NCBI GenBank assembly: GCA_965214465.1
Contig: CBDCBX010000021.1
Span: forward strand, 835,843-899,842
Direction: 5' to 3'
Origin: Acidobacteriota bacterium
Lineage (GTDB): Bacteria; Acidobacteriota; UBA6911; RPQK01; CBDAPI01
DNA length: 64,000 nucleotides
This document shows, piece after piece, positions 28,152 to 37,408 of the stretch. The position numbers were made by a program, and so were the translations under genes. Under the pieces are notes generated by a model. The model was not told the origin of the DNA, ran no database searches, and saw nothing but the letters and a program-made list of their open reading frames with translations. Within the stretch, counting starts at the first letter, position 1; each line of letters begins with the position of its first letter.

Positions 28152-30266
28152 ATGGAAGAAACTCAAATCGGTCGCTACGTCATTTTGAAAGAGATTGGCC
28201 GTGGAGGCCAGAGTCGTGCCTATCTGGCCCGAGATCCCGCCATCGAACGCACGGTCGCGATCAAGCAGATCAGAGCGGTGACTGAGCTTCCAGAAGAGTC
28301 TCGTGCTGAGTTTGTCACCCGATTCCTTCAAGAGGCTCGAGTGGCCGGAACTCTCTCCCACCCGAATATTGTCTCCATCTACGACATGGGAGAAGGCGAA
28401 GCCGGACCCTACATCGTGATGGAGTTCGTCGACGGAGACACCCTCGACGGGATCATCGATCGATCAGATCGGACCGACCTACAGGCTGTCATCCCCATTT
28501 TCCTGCAGATCTGCAGCGGACTGAGTTTCGCCCATCAGCACGGAGTTGTGCATCGTGATGTGAAGCCTGCCAATATCATGCTGACCAGCGGCGGACTCGT
28601 GAAACTGGTCGACTTCGGGATCGCGCGAGTGGCCTCCACCAACCTGACTCAAACAGGCACGCTGCTGGGGACTCCCAGCTATATGTCACCCGAGCAGATT
28701 CAGGGTGAGAAGGTGGACCAGCGAGCTGACATCTTTTCCCTTGGAATCGTGCTCTATGAGGTGCTCACGGGCCGACTTCCCTTCGAGGGCGAGAATCCCA
28801 CGACTATGATCTTTCGGATTGTGAATGATCCCCACTCACCGCTGGCAGAAATCGACGCTTCACTGGCCGGCGATTTTGGGCCCATCATCGACCGGTGTCT
28901 GGAAAAGTCAGCTGCTGATCGCTACCAGGACTGCCGCGAGTTGGCCGAGGATCTGAGCCGCCTGCTTCCCGACAACGGGGCTGGTGGGGACTTGTTCGAC
29001 AAGACCATGGGAACGGCTGCAGCTATCTCCAGAACCCGGTCGGCGGCGTCTTCCGAAACGGATTCGACAGCCACCTGGGTGGGCTCCGAGGAAACCCTGC
29101 TGGCAGAAACGGCCGGGGCAGGTGCTGAGGGTGAGACCGGATGGAGCCTTCCGGTCAGCCGCAAGACCCTGGGCATCCTTGGGGGAGCAGCTGCAGCTGT
29201 CTTGATACTGCTAGCTCTTCTGGTCGCTGCCATGCTTGGCCCGGAGGATCCGGAAGGCCCGATGATGGCTGGCTCCGAGACTGAGTCAGGCGAAACCGGT
29301 TCTTCGCCGCAGGAGTTTCTTCGCCAGGCCCGGGCCGCGCTGGACGCTGGAAAACTGGTCGGTGAGGCGCAGGATGACGCCCTGTATCTGGCTGAGAACG
29401 CACTGTCACTGGGCGAGACGACAGCCCAGGAGGTCATCGATCAGGTTCAAGACCGCCTTCGTAAAATGACTCTGCGGGAGGCCCGGAATGCGACTCCTCA
29501 AGCTGCAGTAACCGCTTATGAGGGTTTCCTGATCCACTTTCCAGACGATGAGCAGATCAACACTCTCAAGCAACAGATGCAGGGCCGAATCGCACAGGCG
29601 AATCAACTCAGGCGGGTTGAGGACTTGGCCGTCCGCGGTCAATCGGCTCTGGCCGACGGCAACTTTGAAGAAGCCGAACGTCATTTCGAGAGGATTCTGA
29701 GAGCCGCTCCCAATGACTCTTATGCATCCCAGATGCCGGGAAAGACGCACGGCGCAAAAGGGGATCTGGCTGAAGCACAACGCTACCTGGAACGGGCAGC
29801 TTCACTCTCACCGCTCGACGCGACTGTGCAGATGGATCTGGCCGAGGTGCTGGAGCGCCTTGGCGATTATGAAGCCGCGGCAGCAGCCATCCACCGGGCG
29901 ATCGGACTAGGGGCCGCCAATGCGGCGGGATCCGGGATTCGCGAAGCTCGGCTGGTAAAACTCAGAGTCAGGGAAGAATTGAGCTCGCTCCTTCCCATCC
30001 AGGCAGACAGCAAGCACAGCCATTTTCTGATGCGGTCCTGCAAGGGAAGACTCGAGGTGACTACTGATTCCATCGAGTACGTGCCGGATCGGAATCAGGG
30101 GCACGCTTTCCAGTTCCAACTGGAAGACCTGCAATCCTTCAAAGTGGAGAAAGGGACTCTGGCCATCTCCGGACCAGACGGGAAAAAGTACGATTTCAAT
30201 GAGCTTGCTGAGGAGGTGTCTCAGACTCTAGCCAAGCTTCAGCAGTTGATGGATGCAGCCGAGTAG
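28152..30266 (+). CDS. Ser/Thr protein kinase with TM segment and C-terminal TPR-like region
   Basis: Hanks kinase subdomains are present (GRGGQSRAY, AIK, HRDVKPANIM, DFGIA, GTPSYMSPE), followed by a TM helix and repeats. Confidence 0.9.
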   Translation: MEETQIGRYVILKEIGRGGQSRAYLARDPAIERTVAIKQIRAVTELPEESRAEFVTRFLQEARVAGTLSHPNIVSIYDMGEGEAGPYIVMEFVDGDTLDGIIDRSDRTDLQAVIPIFLQICSGLSFAHQHGVVHRDVKPANIMLTSGGLVKLVDFGIARVASTNLTQTGTLLGTPSYMSPEQIQGEKVDQRADIFSLGIVLYEVLTGRLPFEGENPTTMIFRIVNDPHSPLAEIDASLAGDFGPIIDRCLEKSAADRYQDCRELAEDLSRLLPDNGAGGDLFDKTMGTAAAISRTRSAASSETDSTATWVGSEETLLAETAGAGAEGETGWSLPVSRKTLGILGGAAAAVLILLALLVAAMLGPEDPEGPMMAGSETESGETGSSPQEFLRQARAALDAGKLVGEAQDDALYLAENALSLGETTAQEVIDQVQDRLRKMTLREARNATPQAAVTAYEGFLIHFPDDEQINTLKQQMQGRIAQANQLRRVEDLAVRGQSALADGNFEEAERHFERILRAAPNDSYASQMPGKTHGAKGDLAEAQRYLERAASLSPLDATVQMDLAEVLERLGDYEAAAAAIHRAIGLGAANAAGSGIREARLVKLRVREELSSLLPIQADSKHSHFLMRSCKGRLEVTTDSIEYVPDRNQGHAFQFQLEDLQSFKVEKGTLAISGPDGKKYDFNELAEEVSQTLAKLQQLMDAAE

Positions 30267-30370
30267 CTGCTCTTTCCTCGTTGGACTCTTGTCTTGCAAG
30301 TCGATCGGGACCAACAACTCGCTCAATGGCGATAAGGATCCGTGCTGAAAATTCCTTCCTCCATGCCCAT

Positions 30371-31183
30371 TCATCGGCCCCTCCTATTAAATTCAAGTTC
30401 TGTATACTTAACGCGCTGGACACCTTCAAGATTTACTACGTCAGCATAAAACACCCTGACGCTAACATCTCTCCCGAGCTGCCGTGAAACGGTTCGGCCG
30501 GATTTTTGAAGATGATCAAGTTGAAGTTCACGTACTGATCTGTGAGAGAATCTGCGACTAACTGTCTGGACAATATTTGTCCTTCCGGCTCTGTAACCTC
30601 CACAATCCTCGTGTCCTATGCAGATAACCGTTTTAACTTCGGTGAGTTCAATTGCTTTTTTAAGCAACAGTTGCATACCCTTATGCAAAAAACCAGAGAC
30701 GGCGACGAGTGCTGTAAATACCGCCAGGCCACTTGGAATCTGAATGAAGTGTGGCTGACTAAAGCCAAGGGTCTGAACAAAATTTTCATTCTGCTTCTCA
30801 AACCGCGGATCTGAGCAGCAGATAACAACACAGTCTGCCGAAGTATTTTCCCAGTTAACAGAGCTTACAAAACCTTTTCTCCCAAGTTCTTCTTCTGAAA
30901 TTCTCCCAGTAAGTCGAACAGATTGCTCCTCCGACTCCTTTACTTCAGAAGAGTCATCTTCATCAGTCATTGGGGCTTCCATTTCTTCGAGTACTTCTTC
31001 TTCGAGTACTTCTTCTTCGAGACCTTGAACATCGACGAGAGCACCCTTTAGAGATGGGTCCCCGGGTTCTTCTGGGTGTGTATTGTCATCTAACCCCATC
31101 GTTATTTCTCCTTTTGCTGTTGTAATTGAAGGATCAGGAAGCGTCATCCATATCGCCCTGATGAGATGATTCTTCCGTATCAC
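30371..31183 (-). CDS. beta-carbonic-anhydrase-like Cys/His/Cys protein with acidic repeat-containing N-terminus (paralogue of 33624..34271)
   Basis: CSDPRF ... ICIGHEDCGGY resembles the beta-CA zinc-site motifs (CSDSR / HxxCGG). A 15-bp tandem DNA repeat encodes LEEEVLEEEVLEE. The gene sits in a low-GC island. Confidence 0.45.
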   Translation of the reverse strand: MIRKNHLIRAIWMTLPDPSITTAKGEITMGLDDNTHPEEPGDPSLKGALVDVQGLEEEVLEEEVLEEMEAPMTDEDDSSEVKESEEQSVRLTGRISEEELGRKGFVSSVNWENTSADCVVICCSDPRFEKQNENFVQTLGFSQPHFIQIPSGLAVFTALVAVSGFLHKGMQLLLKKAIELTEVKTVICIGHEDCGGYRAGRTNIVQTVSRRFSHRSVRELQLDHLQKSGRTVSRQLGRDVSVRVFYADVVNLEGVQRVKYTELEFNRRGR

Positions 31184-32924
31184 TCACCATAGACATAAGA
31201 CCTGTTGCATCCAGACCCAAAAAATTCAAGGCCTTGCTAGGGTCAAGTCCTAGCGGCTTCAACGAAGCCAGCAGTTGAACCAGGGCCTGGGGCGCCACTC
31301 CCGTGATTTTTGAAAGTGGGCTGTTGGCGTTTTCGCCACCATTACCCAGATCGAGGATCTGGATTCTGTCAACGGCTGCCAACCCTTGACCAATAGGCTC
31401 CATAGCAGAGCCAAGAGCACTCTCAGCGGCTTGGCCAGCCTTTTCGATGATCTGCGGCAGCAACTCGAGCGTCAGAACACGAAGAGCCTCCGCTGACATT
31501 TGCGCCATGGCCTCTTTCTTCCTGAGAAAGCCTTCTGCCTCAGCCAGAAGTTTGGCCTCAACGGCTCGGCCTTCGGCAAGTCCCTTTGCAGAAATAGCCG
31601 CACCATCGGCATCACCCTGAGCTTTTGTACCATCTGCTGCTGCCAGAAACTGAGCACGCTCACCGTTGGCTCTGGCTTCCATCTCAGCCTGGTCCGCCTC
31701 GGCGGCGGCCTTACGACCTTCCGCTTTTGCTGTCAAGAAAGCTTGCTCACCTTGCCCCTTCTTTTCCTGCTCCACACGAAATGCCTCACCGCGCATGACA
31801 GCTGCTTCCTGATCAGCAGAAGCCTTAATCAGTGTGGCATCCTTCTGGCGTTCAGCAGTGACAATGACGCTAGCTTTAAGCTCGGCATCTTTGCGTGCAT
31901 GCTCTTTCAGTTGAAGTTTCGTTCTTGCCTCAACCTCGGCCTCCTTAGCCGCGATTATGGCAATATTGAGCTTTCTTTCCTCTTCGGCCTTAGCGGTTTG
32001 AGCAGCAACCTCGATTCTGGCTTGCTCGGACTGAACCCTGGCTGCGTTCTGAGCGACGACCGTATCTCTCTGTCGATTGGCGTCAGAAATTGCTCTTTCG
32101 GCTTCCGCTTCTGCTGTCTCAGCTTGCTGTTTGGCCAGTGCCGCCGCGGTGCGGGCCTCACGATCAGCCAAAGCAGTTCGGACAGTAGCATCCCTGTCCG
32201 CTTCAGCCTCACCGATAGCCGCATCGCGCTTCACCTCAGCCGTGGCTTTTTTACCAAGAGCGTCAATGTAGCCGTGATTGTCGGCGATCTTCTGGATAAC
32301 GAAGATATCGACCTCAAGTCCTAGCTTGTTCAGCTCGTCCTTGGCAACATTGAGTACCGAACCGGCGATTTTTTCCCGCTCCTTGATGATCTCCTCGATC
32401 TTGAGCGTGCCCACAATCATTCTCAGCTGACCTTCAAGAGTTGATCTGCTAATCTGTATCAACCGGCTCAGATCGTTACCCACTTCAAGCAGCCTCTCGA
32501 CGGCATTTGCAAGCAGCCTGGGATCGGAACTGATTTTGAGATTAGCCAGCGCATCTACAGTCACAGGTACGCCATCGATGTTTGGCGAATCAGTGATCTG
32601 AAACTCAACCTGAAAGGTGTCCAGGCTAATCCGCTCGTATGATTCAAAGATAGGCCACACGAATGTCGCTCCTCCGGTAATAAGACGATAACCCTTCTCC
32701 GATTTAGTGCCGTCGGGAAGGGTTATCGTCTTCTTTTTACCGAAGACGACAAGGACTTCGTTTGGCGCGCACTTGACATAGTTGCGTGCAAAGGTAATCA
32801 AGACACTAAGCACCGTGACGGCAAGCCCGACAATCACTACCGGAATCAATAATCCTGCTAGATCCATTCTTTTCTCCTTTTTGAATTGGATTGGCTGTTT
32901 TAGTTTCGATGTAACCGTGGTCAC
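31134..32924 (-). CDS. flotillin-like SPFH-domain protein (YqiK/FloT type)
   Basis: It has an N-terminal TM helix, an SPFH/band-7 domain and a long Ala/Glu-rich coiled coil (EAEAERAISDANRQRD...). Confidence 0.9.
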   Translation of the reverse strand: MTTVTSKLKQPIQFKKEKRMDLAGLLIPVVIVGLAVTVLSVLITFARNYVKCAPNEVLVVFGKKKTITLPDGTKSEKGYRLITGGATFVWPIFESYERISLDTFQVEFQITDSPNIDGVPVTVDALANLKISSDPRLLANAVERLLEVGNDLSRLIQISRSTLEGQLRMIVGTLKIEEIIKEREKIAGSVLNVAKDELNKLGLEVDIFVIQKIADNHGYIDALGKKATAEVKRDAAIGEAEADRDATVRTALADREARTAAALAKQQAETAEAEAERAISDANRQRDTVVAQNAARVQSEQARIEVAAQTAKAEEERKLNIAIIAAKEAEVEARTKLQLKEHARKDAELKASVIVTAERQKDATLIKASADQEAAVMRGEAFRVEQEKKGQGEQAFLTAKAEGRKAAAEADQAEMEARANGERAQFLAAADGTKAQGDADGAAISAKGLAEGRAVEAKLLAEAEGFLRKKEAMAQMSAEALRVLTLELLPQIIEKAGQAAESALGSAMEPIGQGLAAVDRIQILDLGNGGENANSPLSKITGVAPQALVQLLASLKPLGLDPSKALNFLGLDATGLMSMVSDTEESSHQGDMDDAS

Positions 32925-32984
32925 TCCACTCGTGGGAGTCCGTGTTCCTAAACAGATTAAGATCTGAAAACTGTCAGACCTGGT

Positions 32985-33602
32985 TCACTTATCTACTTTC
33001 TCCACAGCAACTCTGTCACCGAGGTAATCAACTACTCGGACAGGAGTGCCCGACTTCAAAGAGATGTTGCCAATTGTAACCGCAGTTCTTGTAACAATAC
33101 GTCCAGCCACTGATAAATCAACTTCTCCTATTCCTTCCTCAGGAATAGATATCTTCACAGTTCCTCTGGCTCCATTGTAATCAGATACCTGAATCATGGA
33201 ACTAGCTTGTTGCTTTAGAAACACCTTGTACAACAACAAACAGACGACTGCAAACGGTGTCCCACCAGCTAATCCAGCAAGAGATGAGACGAATACTTTT
33301 TCTGTGAAGTACATTACAACGAATGCAAATCCGCCAAATCCAGTCAATAGAAACGAAATACCTCTTATGGACAGTAATCCGGGACCATGACCATCTCCGC
33401 CAGCGTCATGATCTCCATCAAAGTCACCATGATCGGCTCCAACATCTGCCTGTAAATCACCGTCGAAGTCGCCATGTTCTGCATCACCTCCAAATATCAG
33501 GCCGAAAAGTGTAAACACCATTCCTGCCGCAAAAAGCGAAAAGAAAATTAACGACTCCATCGAATTACCAAACATCGCTATGATCCATGCGCCAATATTC
33601 AT
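32985..33602 (-). CDS. NfeD-like (YqiJ-type) membrane protein, flotillin partner
   Basis: It has a TM N-terminus, a His/Asp-rich linker (GDAEHGDFDGDLQADVGADHGDFDGDHD) and a C-terminal OB-fold-like region. It lies directly upstream of flotillin. Confidence 0.75.
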   Translation of the reverse strand: MNIGAWIIAMFGNSMESLIFFSLFAAGMVFTLFGLIFGGDAEHGDFDGDLQADVGADHGDFDGDHDAGGDGHGPGLLSIRGISFLLTGFGGFAFVVMYFTEKVFVSSLAGLAGGTPFAVVCLLLYKVFLKQQASSMIQVSDYNGARGTVKISIPEEGIGEVDLSVAGRIVTRTAVTIGNISLKSGTPVRVVDYLGDRVAVEKVDK

Positions 33603-33623
33603 GATGTGTTTCTCCTTTTGGCT

Positions 33624-34271
33624 TTACCGACCAGGGTCTGTATCACTCCGTTCAGATAAACCGATTATTTCCTGAGGAAGCTTTCCCGATATACGATAGA
33701 AAGTAAGTTCTTCACCTTTCATCTCTGCATAGTAAAGATAAACTTCGCTATCAGGAAACCACTCTCTAATGACATTGCGAGCCATTACCAGGTGCTTATG
33801 TTGCACCATTTGTACCTCCTCAAGATTATCGCGCCAGGCGGAGATTGTGTCGTAAAGCAGACAATCACTATGGGCAACAAGAACAACCTTCTCAGGAGCG
33901 TGCCTTCTTAAATACTCAACAGCAGCATTTTTAGCCGGAATAAGATTATCTGGAAGCAATTCATCAGCAAGAGCCACGACCATAGGTCCACCGGGGACCT
34001 TGAGCGGCGGGTAACTGTCATCAATTTCAAGAGTTTTCTTGAAGGCTTCGAAGGCCTCCTGAAACTTCTCCTCGTCGCAGTGTAGAATTAGATCATATCT
34101 GTCTTGCTCCCTGAGTCTTACGACAAAATTGCCATGTTCGTCTGCACCAAGAACATCGGTGCGAATAGGCTCTCGAGCCTCCTCGAGTTCCCATGCCAAC
34201 CAGATCAGGCAACCAAATATTAGAATCGAAGCCACACAAATAACGACGTATCTCATATTCGGGCTGAACAT
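33624..34271 (-). CDS. membrane-anchored beta-carbonic-anhydrase-like Cys/His/Cys protein (divergent paralogue of 30371..31183)
   Basis: It has an N-terminal TM helix. HCDEEKF ... VVLVAHSDC aligns with CSDPRF ... ICIGHEDC of the paralogue. Confidence 0.4.
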   Translation of the reverse strand: MFSPNMRYVVICVASILIFGCLIWLAWELEEAREPIRTDVLGADEHGNFVVRLREQDRYDLILHCDEEKFQEAFEAFKKTLEIDDSYPPLKVPGGPMVVALADELLPDNLIPAKNAAVEYLRRHAPEKVVLVAHSDCLLYDTISAWRDNLEEVQMVQHKHLVMARNVIREWFPDSEVYLYYAEMKGEELTFYRISGKLPQEIIGLSERSDTDPGR

Positions 34272-34473
34272 CAGGTTGCTCCTCTTTTTTAAACTACGAC
34301 TTTAATCGTATCAATATTCCTTTTCTGGGAGATGTTGTGACGCTGGTCGAGTAGATCAGCCATTCCTTTCGCACCACTTGTTTTCATTGGTTTAGCACGG
34401 TGTGGCTTGATTCCGGTTGTGAACTTCTCGTCTTGTTCTTGCTGCGAGTCTTGCTGCCTGGGCCAAAGCTACA

Positions 34474-34623
34474 ATGGCCGGAGATCAACCGGGTAGAGTG
34501 GTCTGCTATTTTCCGCGCACAGACCCGATCAGGCTCGAGGACAAGGAAGTGGAGTTTCAGCTCGAGTGGGGCCGCGTGAAGATCAAGAGCAAATTCAAGC
34601 TCAAGAAAATGGTCTACGACTGA
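34474..34623 (+). CDS. small hypothetical protein (49 aa)
   Basis: The ORF MAGDQPGRVVCYFPRTDPIRLEDKEVEFQLEWGRVKIKSKFKLKKMVYD is below the ORF-track cutoff. It has protein-like composition and lies in the low-GC island. Confidence 0.2.
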   Translation: MAGDQPGRVVCYFPRTDPIRLEDKEVEFQLEWGRVKIKSKFKLKKMVYD

Positions 34624-34752
34624 AAGCTGGAGCTGTAGCCAGCAATGAGGCCAGGCTGGACCACCACACCAGCTCCTAAGTGTGAAGAAGAACTGTCCAG
34701 ACGAATGACTGTATGACGTCATCTACAGGCTTCTTCTATAACATTCTTGAGG

Positions 34753-34783
34753 TAACACAGAATATGCTGGTCAGCATCGTATC
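34753..34783. promoter_or_regulatory. 31-bp palindromic motif, copy 1 (copy 2 at 37229-37259)
   Basis: AACACAGAATATGCTGGTCAGCATCGTATCC is compared with AACACTGAATATGCTGGTCAGTATAGTATTC (27/31 identical). The core ATGCTG-GT-CAGCAT is an inverted repeat. Copy 2 sits 20 bp upstream of the start codon of the 36472..37209 gene. Confidence 0.5.
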
Positions 34784-34793
34784 CCGGCTGTTT

Positions 34794-36197
34794 TCAGCTT
34801 GACTTCGTTCCTTCGACAAGGATTGCCATCTCTACAACCGCCGCACCAATGGAATCACCAAAGACATTTGCTGCTGTTCGGAACCTGTCAAGCAGCCAGT
34901 CCACGGAAAGGATCAACCCCACATACTCTATCGGCAGTCCGACCGCGTTCAAGACGATCAACATCGTAACTAAACCGGCTTCTGGAATTCCCGCTGCACC
35001 AATAGCGGCCAAGGTCGCTGTAACAGCGATGATTACCTGTTGCGCGAGTGTGAGATGAAAACCGATTGCCTGGGCAATGAAGATCGCGGCGGCAGCTTCA
35101 TACAACGCCGTGCCGTCCATGTTAATCGTCGCACCCAATGGCAAAACAAAATCCGTTGATTTTTTCGACACCCCAGCTTTCTGTGCCGTCTCCATCGTCA
35201 CCGGCAACGTAGCGGACGAACTCGCCGTCGAGAACGCCGTCAAAAGAGCCTGGGACATTTGATACATGAACTTGTAGGGATTCTTCTTAGTGAACATCCA
35301 GTAGATGGCTGGGAGTGTCACGAGCACGTGGAACCCTAAGCCAGCAAGCACCGTTGCGAAATACCAACCGACTTGCGACAACTCTTGCACAAACCTGCCT
35401 TCGGCCCTTGCTTCACCAAAGCGTGCCGTCACCAAACAGAAAATACCAATGGGTGCCAACTTCATCAGGAGCATGATGAAGTTCATGAGGGCGGTATTGG
35501 CTTGTGTGACCAGATCGTTGATCAACCCCACCTTTTGGCCCAGTGTCGTGAGCATTCCCGCAAAGATGATGGAGAACACGATCAGCGGGAGCAGATTGGT
35601 CTCGGACGCACTGACGAAGAGATTGTCCGTCACCAGCATCAAGACAAGATTCTCCAGGATCTTCGCTACACTTGGCGTTTCCGGTTCACCGCTGGGAAGT
35701 TCCTTGAAAACACTGCCGACTTCATCCTCGGTCATGCCCGTCACGTCGGACAGCTTTTTCAGCATTCGCGACTTGGGAGAATTTGCACTGTTTCCTCCCT
35801 GAAACTTCTCAAGAGTAGCCTTATCTACCGTCCCTTCACCCGGTCTGATTACATTAACGACCACCAGGCCCACAACCACAGCGAGGATAGTTGTTGAGAC
35901 GTAGTATAAAATGGCAGCTGCACCGGGCTTCCCCAATTTGCGAACGTCTCCGAGGCCCAAGATGCCGCTCATCACGCTGGTCATCACCAGCGGAACCACC
36001 ATCATTTTGAGACACCGCAGGAAAACTTCACCACCGACACGGAATTTTGTCGCCAAGAGCGGGGCGACCAAAGCTAGTGCAATAGCCGCGGCAATTGCGA
36101 TGCAAATGTAGAGTGTGAGATGACTCTTCTTTTCGTTCATAGAATTTTCTCGGTGGAAAGCTCGCCATTCATCACGACAAACGCGGTTAGAACCCAA
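34794..36197 (-). CDS. dicarboxylate/amino-acid:cation symporter (DAACS / GltP-DctA family)
   Basis: It has 8 TM helices plus re-entrant loops and the family motifs (AAIGAAGIPEAGLVTM, NMDGTALY). The probable start is MNEKKSHL at ~36141. Confidence 0.85.
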   Translation of the reverse strand: MGSNRVCRDEWRAFHRENSMNEKKSHLTLYICIAIAAAIALALVAPLLATKFRVGGEVFLRCLKMMVVPLVMTSVMSGILGLGDVRKLGKPGAAAILYYVSTTILAVVVGLVVVNVIRPGEGTVDKATLEKFQGGNSANSPKSRMLKKLSDVTGMTEDEVGSVFKELPSGEPETPSVAKILENLVLMLVTDNLFVSASETNLLPLIVFSIIFAGMLTTLGQKVGLINDLVTQANTALMNFIMLLMKLAPIGIFCLVTARFGEARAEGRFVQELSQVGWYFATVLAGLGFHVLVTLPAIYWMFTKKNPYKFMYQMSQALLTAFSTASSSATLPVTMETAQKAGVSKKSTDFVLPLGATINMDGTALYEAAAAIFIAQAIGFHLTLAQQVIIAVTATLAAIGAAGIPEAGLVTMLIVLNAVGLPIEYVGLILSVDWLLDRFRTAANVFGDSIGAAVVEMAILVEGTKSS

Positions 36198-36471
36198 CGC
36201 CGCTGCTTGCCTTCAGTCATGTCAGTTCCCTTCTGAAGACGGAATTCGCTTCACTCAGCTAAAGACAGCCGCCTCGATTCATGTGGGAATCCTCCTTCTG
36301 TTCACAGGGGCACTCCTGTGCCCGGTAAACCGGGAACAACTTTTTGAGACCGGGTTTCAGTAGAGATTATGGGAAGAGGCCCGGGCAGTCAATCGGCCGC
36401 GCCTCACCCCGGAAATCACCGATCAAGAGCAGGAGCACTTTGTCAGTACAACGCTTGGCTCTGCGGCGGGG

Positions 36472-37209
36472 TCAGCCGTCCGAAGCAGCCGTCTGTTCGG
36501 CCGTTGCCTCCTGAGCTACCTGGACCTCGCACGCGCGCTCCTCGGTTGTTTCCTGCCAATGAGAAATCTCCCGCTTCCCTCTAGGAGATAATTCGTACAC
36601 GCCACGAGACACTCGGTCAAACCAGCCGTACACGTCTCTGTAAAGGATATCTCTGGCTTTCGGCTCCCGGAGAGTCTCGGCTATGCATGAAGCCTTTGTC
36701 GGTCCGTGCTTGTCGAGGAACCGGCCAATTGCCAATGCTCTCTGTCGGTAGGCGGTCATGATGCCCTTTCTCTTCTCTGTCCCGCCGAGGTTCGGATCGC
36801 CTACCCGTCTCATGAACTCACCAAGCAAACGCTCCTGGCGGCGCTTTGACTTGCGAGGCTTATACTCACCGGGATCGAGAAGCACTTCTACACTCCCGGT
36901 CTCCAGATCCGGATCGACCGCCACCAGACCCAAGCCAAGCATCCTGAGCAGCTTGATGATCTGCCTCCGTCGTCTGTTGAGAATTCCACATCGTCTAGGG
37001 ATGCCGATGTACACTTTCGGAGTCAGGGAGAGTCTTTCAACAGCCTGAAGGACCACGTTGAGATTGAAAGAGAGTTTGAGTTCAACGACGACTGGAACTT
37101 CCTCACCGCGCACTGCCAGGACATCACAGTCCTGCACCTCCCCCTTCACCTCATAATTCTGAGACTCCAGGAACCGTTTTAGGGGAAGGTAGAGATCCGA
37201 TTCCTTCAT
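36472..37209 (-). CDS. PD-(D/E)xK-nuclease-like N-domain protein with C-terminal winged-helix-like region
   Basis: QDCDVLAVRGEEVPVVVELKLS is a D...E-x-K nuclease-like core. The C-terminal region is basic and helical (GIMTAYRQRALAIGRFLDKHG). A palindromic motif lies upstream. Confidence 0.45.
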   Translation of the reverse strand: MKESDLYLPLKRFLESQNYEVKGEVQDCDVLAVRGEEVPVVVELKLSFNLNVVLQAVERLSLTPKVYIGIPRRCGILNRRRRQIIKLLRMLGLGLVAVDPDLETGSVEVLLDPGEYKPRKSKRRQERLLGEFMRRVGDPNLGGTEKRKGIMTAYRQRALAIGRFLDKHGPTKASCIAETLREPKARDILYRDVYGWFDRVSRGVYELSPRGKREISHWQETTEERACEVQVAQEATAEQTAASDG

Positions 37210-37408
37210 GCCTATTCCTCATATGCCGAACACTGAATATGCTGGTCAGTATAGTATTCAGGTCGTACACATGGGACGCTGGAAGGCGCCCCATAATTAG
37301 CCTACTGGCAACGAGTTCCGCTGAACATGCCAGCTCGAAGCAGTACGCCGATACGGATCCGCTACCCCCAATTCAGATCAGATGATTATCACGGGGCCAG
37401 ATTGCACG

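What the first reader, a model, noticed from the sequence alone, without database searches (positions are those of the whole stretch)
30270..34790. Low-GC (~48% vs ~60%) island: flotillin-NfeD operon flanked by two paralogous beta-carbonic-anhydrase-like Cys/His/Cys proteins
Four co-directional genes are transcribed on the minus strand. They are a TM-anchored CDEEKF...AHSDC protein, NfeD with a His/Asp-rich linker, flotillin, and a second CSDPRF...GHEDCGG protein with an acidic repeat N-terminus. Their compositional signature is clearly foreign. The two flanking proteins align with each other and carry the Cys...Asp-x-Arg/Lys and His-x-x-Cys spacing of beta-class carbonic anhydrase zinc sites. 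They are otherwise divergent. SPFH/NfeD pairs are common, but the fixed association with a duplicated putative zinc-enzyme pair is not a described arrangement. It suggests a membrane-microdomain-scaffolded enzyme module acquired horizontally. A 31-bp palindromic motif marks the island's right edge.
Basis: partly seen in the sequence, partly recalled or inferred. Interest (0 to 1): 0.58.

Follow-up and report, generated by a model that had tools for sequence, protein, structure and literature searches.

The report
Flotillin operon with two carbonic-anhydrase-like partners
A horizontally acquired four-gene operon pairs a bacterial flotillin and its NfeD partner with two distantly related zinc-site proteins of the beta-carbonic-anhydrase superfamily. 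This gene linkage recurs across several phyla, is undescribed in the literature searched, and points to a candidate enzyme partner for the poorly understood flotillin scaffold.

Summary
Window 30270-34790 is 48.6% GC against 58.0% elsewhere, and the four genes' GC3 of 0.36-0.52 lies 4-8.7 SD below the window's genes.

It carries one minus-strand operon:
- D (34271-33624): membrane-anchored, with C-x-E and H-x-x-C motifs.
- A YuaF-type NfeD (33602-32985) with an Asp/His-rich loop.
- A flotillin (32867-31134).
- A (31099-30371): soluble, with CSDPR and GHEDCGG motifs.

The order D-NfeD-flotillin-A is kept in every contig long enough to show it, with varying flanks. A simpler NfeD-flotillin-Pro_CA_2 triad occurs in Armatimonadia, in Bipolaricaulota and on two unassigned metagenome contigs.

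The cassette is compositionally foreign in three genomes, in opposite directions, and is IS-disrupted in others, so it is mobile and dispensable. No paper found links flotillin operons to these proteins.

Function is inferred only: a flotillin/NfeD scaffold with a zinc-enzyme partner (A) and a tethered, probably non-catalytic paralogue (D). I rate it a new variant of a known kind, with moderate interest.

The parts
33624..34271 (-). Gene D: 215-aa protein with an N-terminal TM helix (res 9-27), a conserved juxtamembrane WELEE..P.RT motif, and a Pro_CA_2/beta-CA-like domain. Candidate metal ligands are C65 (34077-34079), H134 (33870-33872) and C137 (33861-33863). E67 (34071-34073) replaces the catalytic Asp, and position 69 is not conserved.
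   Evidence: ORF; alignment; Pfam Pro_CA_2 sub-threshold (15.9 bits in the window protein; 12 of 14 relatives hit, best 1.8e-5); hhalign to the A family 96.8%; D profile retrieves bona fide PF20393 proteins; codon positions.
32985..33602 (-). YuaF-type (short) NfeD, 205 aa. It has three hydrophobic segments (about 18-41, 79-99 and 105-129), an Asp/His/Gly-rich loop (res 39-74) between TM1 and TM2, and a C-terminal OB-fold domain.
   Evidence: Family profile against PDB: YuaF 2K14 at E 7.2e-8; 4 of 8 orthologues hit Pfam NfeD, best 7.9e-6; loop conservation; hydropathy.
31134..32867 (-). Flotillin (SPFH2 type), 577 aa. It has an N-terminal TM/hairpin (res 6-24), an SPFH domain, a long Ala/Glu-rich region and a flotillin C-terminal region.
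   Evidence: Pfam Band_7 2.6e-25, Flot 0.004; NCBIfam FloT 6.8e-57, below the equivalog cut-off; 24% identity to E. coli YqiK, E 9e-9; start set by the shared RBS and the lengths of homologues.
30371..31099 (-). Gene A: 242-aa soluble beta-CA-fold protein. It has an acidic disordered N-terminus, a CSDPR motif (C 30815-30817, D 30809-30811, R 30803-30805), a GHEDCGG motif (H 30611-30613, C 30602-30604) and a basic C-terminal tail.
30983..31035 (-). 15-nt tandem repeat encoding (E)EEVL units in A's N-terminal tail. Copy number differs between near-identical relatives.
   Evidence: family D2; P0013 has one unit fewer, P0014 one more.
31105..31116 (-). Shine-Dalgarno motif CAAAAGGAGAAA (minus strand) before gene A. 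Near-identical copies lie before the flotillin gene (32871-32882, 11 of 12 positions) and before NfeD (33609-33620).
   Evidence: family D3, three copies at 100/92/100%.
34272..34793 (-). 522-nt upstream spacer at island GC (0.42-0.53). It is the presumed promoter/leader region. No supported gene, no Rfam family and no promoter excess over chance.
34754..34784 (.). Roughly 29-nt motif with a 14-bp core palindrome, ATGCTG-GT-CAGCAT. A second copy lies at 37229-37257 upstream of the DUF2161 gene. It is probably a regulator-binding site.
   Evidence: (2 matches against 0.14 expected).

Best explanation
SHOWN: The region is a mobile, horizontally acquired four-gene operon. It couples a flotillin and its YuaF-type NfeD partner to two distant paralogues of the Pro_CA_2/beta-carbonic-anhydrase superfamily.

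INFERRED MECHANISM:
- By analogy with solved SPFH-NfeD assemblies, flotillin and NfeD build an oligomeric scaffold on the cytoplasmic face of the inner membrane. Charge distribution places the SPFH domain, the NfeD OB domain and the Asp/His-rich loop in the cytoplasm.
- A is a soluble protein with a Zn(Cys2His)-type site, a beta-CA fold and an intact Asp-Arg dyad. It is the catalytic partner or cargo of this scaffold. Its most likely chemistry is reversible hydration of CO2, or hydrolysis of a similar small linear molecule of the COS/CS2 type.
- D keeps the metal ligands but carries Glu for Asp and no fixed Arg, and it has a single TM anchor. It most likely acts as a non-catalytic or regulatory membrane tether.
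- D possibly heterodimerises with A, because beta-CA-fold proteins are obligate dimers with interface active sites. This step holds only if D's domain faces the cytoplasm, and that is unresolved.
For: CASSETTE CONSERVATION:
- The D-NfeD-flotillin-A order is found in L001, L002=L007, L003, L005, L006, L008, L011/L012, L025, L026 and L022, with unrelated flanks.
- All 6 short metagenome contigs that carry D have NfeD next, and then flotillin and A where the contig length allows.
- The wider triad NfeD-flotillin-Pro_CA_2 occurs in Armatimonadia (L009), on unassigned metagenome contigs (L016/L017, L018) and in Bipolaricaulota (L020). Every distant Pro_CA_2 relative on a contig long enough to show its upstream side sits directly after a flotillin gene.

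PROTEIN A:
- C123, D125, H191, C194 and G195 are invariant and R127 is nearly so in 31 homologues.
- 31 of 31 hit Pfam Pro_CA.
- The family profile hits the beta-CA 1ddz at 2e-5.

PROTEIN D:
- hhalign to A gives 96.8% with the ligands in register.
- About 31 representative clusters at 50% identity share the TM anchor plus C-x-E ... H-x-x-C-L-x-Y-D.

NfeD AND FLOTILLIN: Identities are. SPFH-NfeD cage formation and the SPFH2-YuaF operon are established in the literature (PMC13086221 citing Tan et al. 2024; PMC2636767).

HORIZONTAL TRANSFER:
- GC3 lies 4-8.7 SD below the window's genes.
- The cassette is GC-richer than its flanks in L005 (0.51 against 0.35-0.36) and L008 (0.57 against 0.46-0.51), and matches its flanks in L001, L002, L003, L006 and L009.
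- IS elements disrupt the cassette in L006, and solo or truncated A copies lie beside transposases in L004 and L023.
Against: - No activity, metal content or physical interaction has been tested.
- A scores below Pfam's gathering threshold for Pro_CA (21 against 25.7 bits). Its Foldseek TM-scores are low (0.29-0.49) and mixed with RecA/KaiC folds.
- The D model is unreliable (pLDDT 58) and gave no significant structural match.
- The Asp-Arg dyad is lost in the flotillin-linked Pro_CA_2 proteins of L018 and L020 (CSSNV), although H-E-D-C is kept. Catalysis of the CA type therefore cannot be the universal role of the family.
- D's topology is ambiguous. Its short basic N-flank (net +2.2) against a near-neutral C-flank favours an outward-facing domain, which would preclude an A:D heterodimer.
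- No mobility gene, tRNA or flanking direct repeat marks the island in this window.
Confidence: 0.5

Rival explanations
1. A and D are non-catalytic zinc-binding (structural, redox-sensing or CO2/bicarbonate-sensing) adaptor subunits. They regulate assembly or client choice of the flotillin-NfeD scaffold. The beta-CA fold has been re-used as a metal-dependent switch, not as an enzyme.
For: - The only universally conserved feature across A, D and all flotillin-linked relatives is the Cys/His/Cys triad.
- The Asp-Arg dyad is altered in the whole D family (Glu, with a variable +4 position) and lost in L018 and L020 (CSSNV).
- The strict operon linkage resembles that of structural partners.
- A's N-terminal tail length is highly variable, which fits an adaptor.
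Against: - The A family, L009, L016 and 91 of 148 wider relatives keep the complete C-x-D-x-R plus H-x-x-C catalytic signature. Strict retention of this signature is hard to explain without catalysis.
- No precedent was found in the literature searched.
Confidence: 0.25
2. The pair is a two-sided inorganic-carbon/proton shuttle. D's domain faces the periplasm and A faces the cytoplasm. They interconvert CO2 and bicarbonate on opposite faces of a flotillin-organised membrane patch, for pH homeostasis or carbon trapping.
For: - D's N-flank is short, basic and free of acidic residues, like a signal anchor. Net charge favours an N-in/C-out orientation.
- A has no signal sequence or strong TM segment.
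- Periplasmic plus cytoplasmic CA pairs are known in other bacteria (own knowledge, not tested here).
Against: - D lacks the conserved Arg and has Glu for Asp.
- K+R counts on the two flanks of D's TM are equal.
- Cys-ligated zinc sites are unusual in an oxidising periplasm (own knowledge).
- The widespread three-gene version has only the cytoplasmic-type protein.
Confidence: 0.1
3. The cassette is a metal (zinc) buffering or handling module. The Asp/His-rich NfeD loops and the two Cys2His proteins bind or deliver metal at the membrane.
For: - The Asp/His-rich loop is present in the seven four-gene-cassette NfeDs aligned and in L016.
- A heavy-metal-binding (HMBD) protein is encoded directly upstream in L009.
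- ZIP and MopE genes lie near an A-like gene in L027.
Against: - Metal-related neighbours appear in only 2 of more than 12 contexts, and other flanks are unrelated.
- The loop is weak in L009 and L018.
- No metal transporter or regulator lies inside the cassette.
Confidence: 0.08
4. The cassette is a mobile stress or anti-phage defence island whose effector is membrane-directed. The CA-like proteins act as sensors or toxins.
For: - It shows horizontal mobility, variable genomic context and IS-mediated decay.
- SPFH proteins are stress-linked in the literature (PMC2636767, PMC13086221).
Against: - None of the four proteins hits PADLOC.
- There are no matches on plasmids.
- No nuclease, protease or NTPase effector is present, and no defence genes appear among the neighbours seen.
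Confidence: 0.05

Closest known systems
Bacillus subtilis yuaF-floT(yuaG)-yuaI operon (SPFH2 flotillin with NfeD2 partner; Hinderhofer et al. 2009, PMC2636767)
   Same: - The gene order is a short NfeD followed by a flotillin and then a third, accessory enzyme-like gene.
- The NfeD C-terminal domain is homologous to YuaF (E 7.2e-8).
- The flotillin is FloT-like.
- SPFH2-NfeD pairs are reported to be transferred laterally as a unit.
   Different: - The accessory gene here is a beta-CA-like Pro_CA_2 protein, not a GNAT acetyltransferase.
- A fourth, membrane-anchored paralogue precedes NfeD.
- The flotillin scores below the FloT equivalog cut-off (193.6 against 700 bits).
Cab-type beta-class carbonic anhydrase (M. 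thermoautotrophicum, PDB 1G5C) and beta-CA-fold COS/CS2 hydrolases (3VRK, 3TEN)
   Same: - A has the C-x-D-x-R and H-x-x-C-G motifs.
   Different: - Identity is only 12-22%.
- A falls below Pfam's Pro_CA threshold.
- The segment between the ligand motifs is about 12 residues longer. That estimate uses the known Cab ligand positions from my own knowledge.
- A and D carry the Pro_CA_2-type signatures P-[GS]-G and (F/Y)YA.
- D has Glu for Asp and no Arg.
Pfam PF20393 Pro_CA_2 ('Putative carbonic anhydrase'), uncharacterised
   Same: - The D-family profile retrieves bona fide PF20393 proteins (P0050 at 2.5e-20; P0093, P0120, P0156 and P0175 pass the gathering score).
- The L009 triad member passes the threshold (44 against 30 bits).
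- They share the motifs hC-x-D-x-RF, PGG, H-x-D-C-x-W/L-Y and YYA.
   Different: - Window A has no Pro_CA_2 hit of its own, and window D is sub-threshold (15.9 bits).
- D adds a TM anchor and a D-to-E switch.
- A adds a disordered acidic tail and a basic C-terminus.
LCIB/LCIC of Chlamydomonas and DabA of DAB complexes (beta-CA-like proteins that work as paralogue heteromers or only with a membrane partner; own knowledge)
   Same: - They set a precedent for paralogous beta-CA-like subunits and for membrane-partner dependence.
   Different: - There is no detectable sequence relationship beyond the fold.
- The partners here are flotillin and NfeD, not a cation-translocating subunit.
- No link to carbon fixation is evident.
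E. coli QmcA-YbbJ SPFH-NfeD cage (Tan et al. 2024, as cited in PMC13086221) and yqiJK
   Same: It is an SPFH protein plus an NfeD encoded in one operon, forming a cage-like membrane assembly. The flotillin here is 24% identical to YqiK.
   Different: - No enzyme partner is encoded in those operons.
- The cassette NfeD is not detectably similar to YqiJ (hhalign probability 0.4%).

Membership tests
Beta-class carbonic anhydrase (Pfam PF00484 Pro_CA) | Zinc ligands Cys, His, Cys in C-x-D-x-R ... H-x-x-C, with the Asp-Arg dyad | tested here: met
   Protein A: C123, D125, H191 and C194 are invariant and R127 is at least 90% conserved in 31 homologues.
Beta-class carbonic anhydrase (Pfam PF00484 Pro_CA) | The same motif in protein D | tested here: not met
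   C65, H134 and C137 are kept. However, Asp is replaced by an invariant Glu67, and the Arg position is K/R/M/D/L and other residues.
Beta-class carbonic anhydrase (Pfam PF00484 Pro_CA) | Score at or above Pfam's gathering threshold (25.7 bits) | tested here: not met
   A scores 21 bits, E 4.3e-4. All 31 relatives hit at E <= 0.1 (best 5.6e-6). D has no PF00484 hit.
Beta-class carbonic anhydrase (Pfam PF00484 Pro_CA) | Beta-CA alpha/beta fold | tested here: met
   [not shown]
Beta-class carbonic anhydrase (Pfam PF00484 Pro_CA) | CO2 hydratase activity and bound zinc | not testable with these tools
   Needs purified protein, metal analysis and stopped-flow assays.
Pfam PF20393 Pro_CA_2 | Score at or above the gathering threshold (30 bits) | tested here: not met
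   Window D scores 15.9 bits and window A has no hit. 12 of 14 D relatives and 12 of 31 A relatives hit below threshold.
Pfam PF20393 Pro_CA_2 | Profile-level homology to bona fide members and shared motifs (C-x-D/E-x-x-F, PGG, H-x-x-C, YYA) | tested here: met
   The D profile hits P0050 at 2.5e-20 and P0047 at 7e-11, and many 150-aa proteins that pass the PF20393 threshold. The L009 and L016 members lie in the same gene position as A.
Prokaryotic flotillin (SPFH2; FloT/YqiK) | SPFH/Band_7 domain above threshold, an N-terminal membrane anchor and a long Ala/Glu-rich region | tested here: met
   Band_7 scores 89.9 bits against a threshold of 23.6. A TM segment spans residues 6-24.
Prokaryotic flotillin (SPFH2; FloT/YqiK) | NCBIfam FloT equivalog cut-off (700 bits) and Pfam Flot domain cut-off (27 bits) | tested here: not met
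   193.6 bits and 17.7 bits respectively. The protein is flotillin-like but is not a FloT equivalog.
NfeD, short YuaF type (NfeD2) | C-terminal OB-fold partner-binding domain homologous to YuaF/PF01957 | tested here: met
   The family profile hits YuaF 2K14 at 7.2e-8. 4 of 8 orthologues hit PF01957 (best 7.9e-6). The window protein alone gives no Pfam hit.
NfeD, short YuaF type (NfeD2) | Three N-terminal hydrophobic segments and a position directly upstream of an SPFH2 gene | tested here: met
   The gene order holds in all loci.
Horizontally acquired genomic island | Compositional deviation from the host genome | tested here: met
   GC is 0.486 against 0.580, and GC3 lies 4-8.7 SD below the window's genes.
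Horizontally acquired genomic island | Mobility hallmarks at the site (integrase/transposase, tRNA, flanking direct repeats) | tested here: not met
   The window has no tRNA and no mobility gene next to the cassette. The edge motif recurs in native DNA. IS elements do accompany cassette remnants in other genomes.
Known anti-phage defence systems (PADLOC-DB) | Any component matching a defence-system model | tested here: not met
   0 families for all four proteins at E <= 0.01.

The most novel reading that the evidence does not exclude
Pro_CA_2 proteins are the dedicated enzymatic partner of a widespread class of bacterial flotillin/NfeD assemblies. On this reading the flotillin cage acts as a membrane-attached reaction chamber for a zinc-dependent small-molecule conversion of the CO2/bicarbonate type. 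In the four-gene version, a membrane-anchored pseudo-enzyme (D) docks the catalytic subunit (A), or a periplasmic/cytoplasmic pair makes the reaction vectorial. This would give bacterial flotillins a defined biochemical client for the first time.
Probability: 0.15. Interest if true: 0.8.

Novelty: new variant of a known kind. Interest (0 to 1): 0.55.

Why it matters
Bacterial flotillins and their NfeD partners are widespread, but what they do and which clients they organise is still debated. PMC13086221 describes their roles as diverse and unclear.

A gene linkage that holds across Acidobacteriota, Armatimonadia and Bipolaricaulota, and survives horizontal transfer as a unit, is strong genomic evidence for a physical or functional partnership with a specific protein family. 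That family, Pro_CA_2, is itself uncharacterised and has no solved structure: the profile searches found none.

The finding supplies a small, testable four-protein system for three questions:
- Do flotillin scaffolds house an enzyme?
- What does the Pro_CA_2 family catalyse or sense?
- What does the conserved Asp/His-rich NfeD loop bind?

It also defines a new membrane-anchored C-x-E subfamily (D), with about 31 cluster representatives at 50% identity among 1.84 billion proteins.

Tried and rejected
- RIBOSWITCH OR OTHER RNA: An Rfam search of 30000-36500 at E <= 1 gave no match, so there is no known riboswitch or leader in the 522-nt spacer.
- PROMOTER AND TERMINATOR SCANS: Counts were no higher than in shuffled sequence.
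- PALINDROME AT THE RIGHT EDGE: The inverted-repeat tool and my own ungapped scan found nothing of 20 nt or more. Only a 14-bp core palindrome within a repeated 29-nt motif was found later.
- STRUCTURE OF D: The alignment of 11 sequences gave pLDDT 58, and Foldseek against the PDB gave no hit at E <= 0.001. D's assignment therefore rests on profile comparisons. The D profile against PDB sequences found nothing relevant.
- DEFENCE SYSTEM: No PADLOC hit.
- PLASMID CARRIAGE: No tblastn hit for A or D in PLSDB.
- E. COLI YqiJ AS A COMPARATOR FOR THE ASP/HIS LOOP: No detectable similarity.
- DOMAIN FUSIONS AMONG LONGER PRO_CA_2 RELATIVES: The N-terminal extensions carry no known domain.
- REMNANTS OF DONOR FLANKING GENES IN THE SPACER: tblastx against all loci found nothing.
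- LITERATURE: Six searches, including combinations of flotillin/SPFH/NfeD with carbonic anhydrase and a search for PF20393, found no relevant paper. The 2009 SPFH operon survey does not mention carbonic anhydrase.
- D TOPOLOGY FROM FLANK CHARGES: Ambiguous.
- REJECTED - RECENT TANDEM DUPLICATION OF A AND D: They are only 24% identical, and each is about as close to generic Pro_CA_2 proteins as to the other.
- REJECTED - THE LOW-GC ISLAND EXTENDS INTO THE SYMPORTER GENE: Its GC3 of 0.62 is native.

Full report
1. WHAT IS IN THE SEQUENCE

The interval 30270-34790 has 48.6% GC against 58.0% for the rest of the window. No other 4.5-kb stretch falls below 55.4% (mean 58.0%, SD 1.2%) (profiles).

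The interval contains four co-directional minus-strand ORFs. An identical Shine-Dalgarno motif, CAAAAGGAGAAA on the minus strand, precedes three of them (family D3). This motif fixes the likely starts. In transcription order the genes are:
- D, 34271-33624 (215 aa)
- NfeD-like, 33602-32985 (205 aa)
- flotillin, 32867-31134 (577 aa)
- A, 31099-30371 (242 aa)

The 242-aa A, the 215-aa D and the 205-aa NfeD are present as exactly these sequences in the public protein collection, on contigs of 1.4-5.8 Mb. A 10-kb metagenome contig (L022) carries the same locus at 99.6% nucleotide identity.

Third-codon-position GC is 0.37 (A), 0.52 (flotillin), 0.36 (NfeD) and 0.43 (D). Thirty other ORFs of the window average 0.665 with SD 0.035. 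The four genes are therefore 4.0-8.7 SD low. The adjacent symporter gene (Pfam SDF) has GC3 0.62 and is native.

2. IDENTITY OF THE FOUR PROTEINS

Flotillin. It scores Band_7 2.6e-25 and gives a weak Flot-domain hit. NCBIfam FloT gives 6.8e-57, which is below the equivalog cut-off. It is 24% identical to E. coli YqiK.

NfeD. The window protein on its own hits nothing in Pfam. A profile of eight cassette orthologues hits the solved C-terminal domain of B. subtilis YuaF (2K14) at 7.2e-8, and four of the eight hit Pfam NfeD. The protein has three hydrophobic segments. It also has an Asp/His/Gly-rich loop between the first two segments, present in the seven four-gene-cassette NfeDs aligned and weak in the Armatimonadia one. 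It is therefore a YuaF-type short NfeD, the known operon partner of SPFH2 flotillins (PMC2636767).

Protein A.
- Its acidic, disordered N-terminus includes a 15-nt tandem repeat whose copy number varies between 96-98% identical relatives.
- Its core has C-S-D-P-R and G-H-E-D-C-G-G. The Cys, Asp, His, Cys and Gly are invariant and the Arg is nearly invariant in 31 homologues.
- All 31 homologues hit Pfam Pro_CA below the gathering threshold (best 5.6e-6), and 12 also hit Pro_CA_2.
- The family profile finds the Porphyridium beta-CA 1ddz at 2e-5.
- An AF2 model has overall pLDDT 71. The core is well predicted, with most 10-residue blocks at 80-97 and dips to 56-67 around residues 150-170 and 190-210.
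- Foldseek top hits are beta-CAs but are mixed with RecA/KaiC folds at low TM-scores.

Protein D.
- It has an N-terminal TM helix and a strongly conserved juxtamembrane motif, W-E-L-E-E-x-K-K-P-V-R-T.
- Its domain aligns to A with hhalign probability 96.8% (E 2e-10). C65, E67, H134 and C137 of D are in register with C123, D125, H191 and C194 of A in ORF numbering.
- Twelve of 14 D relatives hit Pfam Pro_CA_2 below threshold.
- The structure prediction for D was poor (pLDDT 58) and gave no significant fold match. Its assignment therefore rests on sequence profiles.

D-family profile search. I searched a D-family profile against 1.84 billion representative proteins. It gave 374 hits at E <= 1e-3 and 31 at E <= 1e-30.
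- The 31 strong hits are D proper. Most have a TM anchor plus C-x-E ... H-x-x-C-L-x-Y-D, with the position equivalent to the catalytic Arg variable.
- The remainder are mostly soluble proteins of about 150 aa. In 91 of the 148 analysed they carry C-x-D-x-R ... H-x-x-C.
- Several of these pass Pfam's Pro_CA_2 threshold.

A and D are thus two distinct subfamilies of the Pro_CA_2/beta-CA superfamily, not recent duplicates.

3. IS THE ASSOCIATION FIXED?

Yes, as far as it could be sampled.

The four-gene order D-NfeD-flotillin-A occurs in:
- JGI contigs L001, L003, L025 and L026
- a 6.78-Mb Thermoanaerobaculia chromosome (L002=L007)
- a Vicinamibacterales contig (L006)
- two contigs labelled Parcubacteria and Saccharibacteria (L005, L008)
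- metagenome contigs L011 and L012

Flanking genes differ between most of these loci; only L003 and L026 share an upstream neighbour. All six short contigs found through D have NfeD next, and flotillin and A where the contig length allows.

A three-gene form, NfeD-flotillin-Pro_CA_2, occurs in an Armatimonadia contig (L009). Its 153-aa member passes the PF20393 threshold at 44 bits and has CSDGR/HEDCG. The same form occurs around more distant relatives:
- P0050 (L016, L017), on unassigned metagenome contigs
- P0052 (L018; the short contig L019 shows only the flotillin 3' end), also unassigned
- P0056 (L020), from a Bipolaricaulota MAG

In each, the gene sits directly after a flotillin gene, and an NfeD-like gene precedes the flotillin wherever the contig reaches that far. 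One further relative (P0054, L024) begins 140 nt from its contig end, so it is uninformative.

In L018 and L020 the Asp-Arg dyad is lost (CSSNV) while H-E-D-C remains.

Exceptions to the linkage are decay products:
- A solo copy of gene A lies beside a DDE transposase in an Acidobacteriota chromosome (L004). It is 93% identical at nucleotide level, exactly over window 30344-31122.
- A truncated copy lies in an IS-rich region (L023).
- In L006 the cassette is interrupted by two IS elements.

4. HORIZONTAL ORIGIN

The evidence goes beyond the GC3 deficit in this window.
- The cassette is GC-richer than its flanks in L005 (0.51 against 0.35-0.36) and L008 (0.57 against 0.46-0.51).
- It matches its flanks in L001, L002, L003, L006 and L009.
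- Mismatches in opposite directions in different hosts argue for transfer of the whole cassette rather than an intrinsic compositional constraint.
- The 2009 survey of SPFH operons also concluded that SPFH2-NfeD pairs move laterally together (PMC2636767).

No integrase, transposase, tRNA or flanking direct repeat marks the site in this window. The mechanism and the exact junctions therefore remain open. Neither A nor D is found on plasmids in PLSDB.

5. THE EDGE MOTIF

What is present is a 14-bp palindrome, ATGCTG-GT-CAGCAT, within a roughly 29-nt motif at 34754-34784. A 26-of-29 copy lies at 37229-37257 in native-GC DNA, upstream of a DUF2161 gene. Two matches were found against 0.14 expected by chance.

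Both copies lie 20-62 nt upstream of a minus-strand ORF start. I read the motif as a probable regulator-binding site, not an island attachment site.

The 522-nt spacer upstream of D has no Rfam match and no supported gene.

6. HOW IT MOST LIKELY WORKS

Shown:
- a conserved, mobile operon
- a YuaF-type NfeD and a flotillin
- a beta-CA-fold protein (A) with a complete catalytic signature
- a TM-anchored paralogue (D) that keeps only the ligand triad

Inferred from established knowledge: SPFH proteins with NfeD partners form oligomeric cage-like membrane assemblies (QmcA-YbbJ, as cited in PMC13086221). Beta-CA-fold proteins are obligate dimers with active sites at the interface (own knowledge).

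Flank charges place the flotillin SPFH domain, the NfeD OB domain and the Asp/His loop on the cytoplasmic side. This rests on my reading of the sequence. A has no signal sequence.

My best reading has three parts:
- Flotillin and NfeD scaffold a zinc enzyme, A.
- A most likely catalyses CO2 hydration or a COS/CS2-type hydrolysis.
- D acts as a tether or regulatory pseudo-enzyme, possibly in a heterodimer with A.

The main uncertainty is D's topology. Its short basic N-flank favours an outward-facing domain, but K+R counts on the two flanks are equal. An outward-facing D would instead suggest a two-sided pair.

The loss of the dyad in D and in the L018/L020 proteins keeps alive the rival that these are metal-dependent adaptors or sensors rather than enzymes. 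The metal-handling and defence readings have little support.

7. COMPARISON WITH THE KNOWN, AND NOVELTY

The core resembles yuaF-floT-yuaI of B. subtilis: NfeD2, then SPFH2, then an accessory gene. Here the accessory is a Pro_CA_2-type protein, and a second, membrane-anchored paralogue is added upstream.

A passes the motif and fold tests for the beta-CA superfamily but fails Pfam's score thresholds for both Pro_CA and Pro_CA_2. D fails the dyad test. Neither should be filed as a carbonic anhydrase.

Six full-text searches found no paper linking flotillin/SPFH/NfeD operons with carbonic-anhydrase-like genes or mentioning PF20393. The 2009 operon survey does not mention them either. The library covers open-access papers and bioRxiv only, so a description elsewhere cannot be excluded.

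I rate this a new variant of a known kind. It has moderate interest because it offers a concrete, testable candidate partner for bacterial flotillin scaffolds.

Noticed in passing
window 34754-34784 and 37229-37257: A motif of about 29 nt, AACACNGAATATGCTGGTCAGYATNGTATYC, occurs twice (26 of 29 positions identical). Each copy lies 20-62 nt upstream of a minus-strand ORF start: the unsupported ORF at 34722 and the DUF2161 gene at 37209. The core is the palindrome ATGCTG-GT-CAGCAT. It is probably a shared operator. Among the fetched loci it is found only in L022, the same locus as the window.
   Followed up: partly
L006:731-2266 and L006:4376-5698: In a Vicinamibacterales MAG the same cassette is broken by two insertion sequences. 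One is a DDE_Tnp_1/DUF772 transposase gene between D and NfeD. The other is an IS3-type (rve) integrase gene inside the flotillin gene.
   Followed up: yes
L004:6002-6766 (Acidobacteriota OZ252114.1) and L023:3038-3345: Gene A alone, with its RBS and 27 nt of downstream sequence, is 93% identical to window 30344-31122. It sits between an amidohydrolase gene and a DDE_Tnp_1_4 transposase gene. A truncated copy, 95% identical over 309 nt, lies in an IS- and integrase-rich region of another contig. The sharp homology boundaries look cassette-like, but no attC-type element was examined.
   Followed up: partly
window 30983-31035: A 15-nt tandem repeat encodes EEEVL units in A's N-terminal tail. Copy number differs among 96-98% identical relatives (P0013 has one unit fewer, P0014 one more). 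The tail is absent from most homologues of 180-195 aa.
   Followed up: partly
window 34272-34793: This 522-nt spacer at island-like GC has no supported gene. The minus-strand 112-aa ORF (34722-34384) shows no codon-position GC bias. A plus-strand 49-codon ORF at about 34474-34622 (MAGDQPGRVVCYFPRTDPIRLEDKEVEFQLEWGRVKIKSKFKLKKMVYD) could be a gene remnant.
   Followed up: partly
L009:3351-3752; L027:1739-5213: Metal-related neighbours appear in two contexts. In the Armatimonadia locus a secreted protein with two HMBD heavy-metal-binding domains lies directly upstream of NfeD. ZIP transporter and MopE copper-binding genes lie near an A-like gene in L027. This may be coincidence.
   Followed up: no
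window 32960-32981 (minus strand): A hairpin followed by a T-rich tract lies directly after the NfeD stop codon, in the unusually long (117-nt) NfeD-flotillin spacer. It could be an attenuator that sets the NfeD:flotillin ratio. Terminator-like sites in the region are no more frequent than chance.
   Followed up: no
protein A residues 118-136 (242-aa numbering); window about 30692-30748: The hydrophobic segment IPSGLAVFTALVAVSGFLH is highly conserved (Kyte-Doolittle 1.68) but poorly predicted in the model (pLDDT 56-65). It has no equivalent in canonical beta-CAs. It might contact the membrane or the flotillin.
   Followed up: no
L005 and L008: Contigs labelled Candidatus Parcubacteria and Saccharibacteria carry the full cassette at a GC far above their flanks. 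Either the cassette was transferred into low-GC hosts or these MAG contigs are mis-binned or chimeric.
   Followed up: no
P0093, P0120 (relatives): Some longer Pro_CA_2 relatives have helical, Ala/Glu/Lys-rich N-terminal extensions that resemble flotillin coiled-coil sequence. No Pfam domain was found in them.
   Followed up: partly
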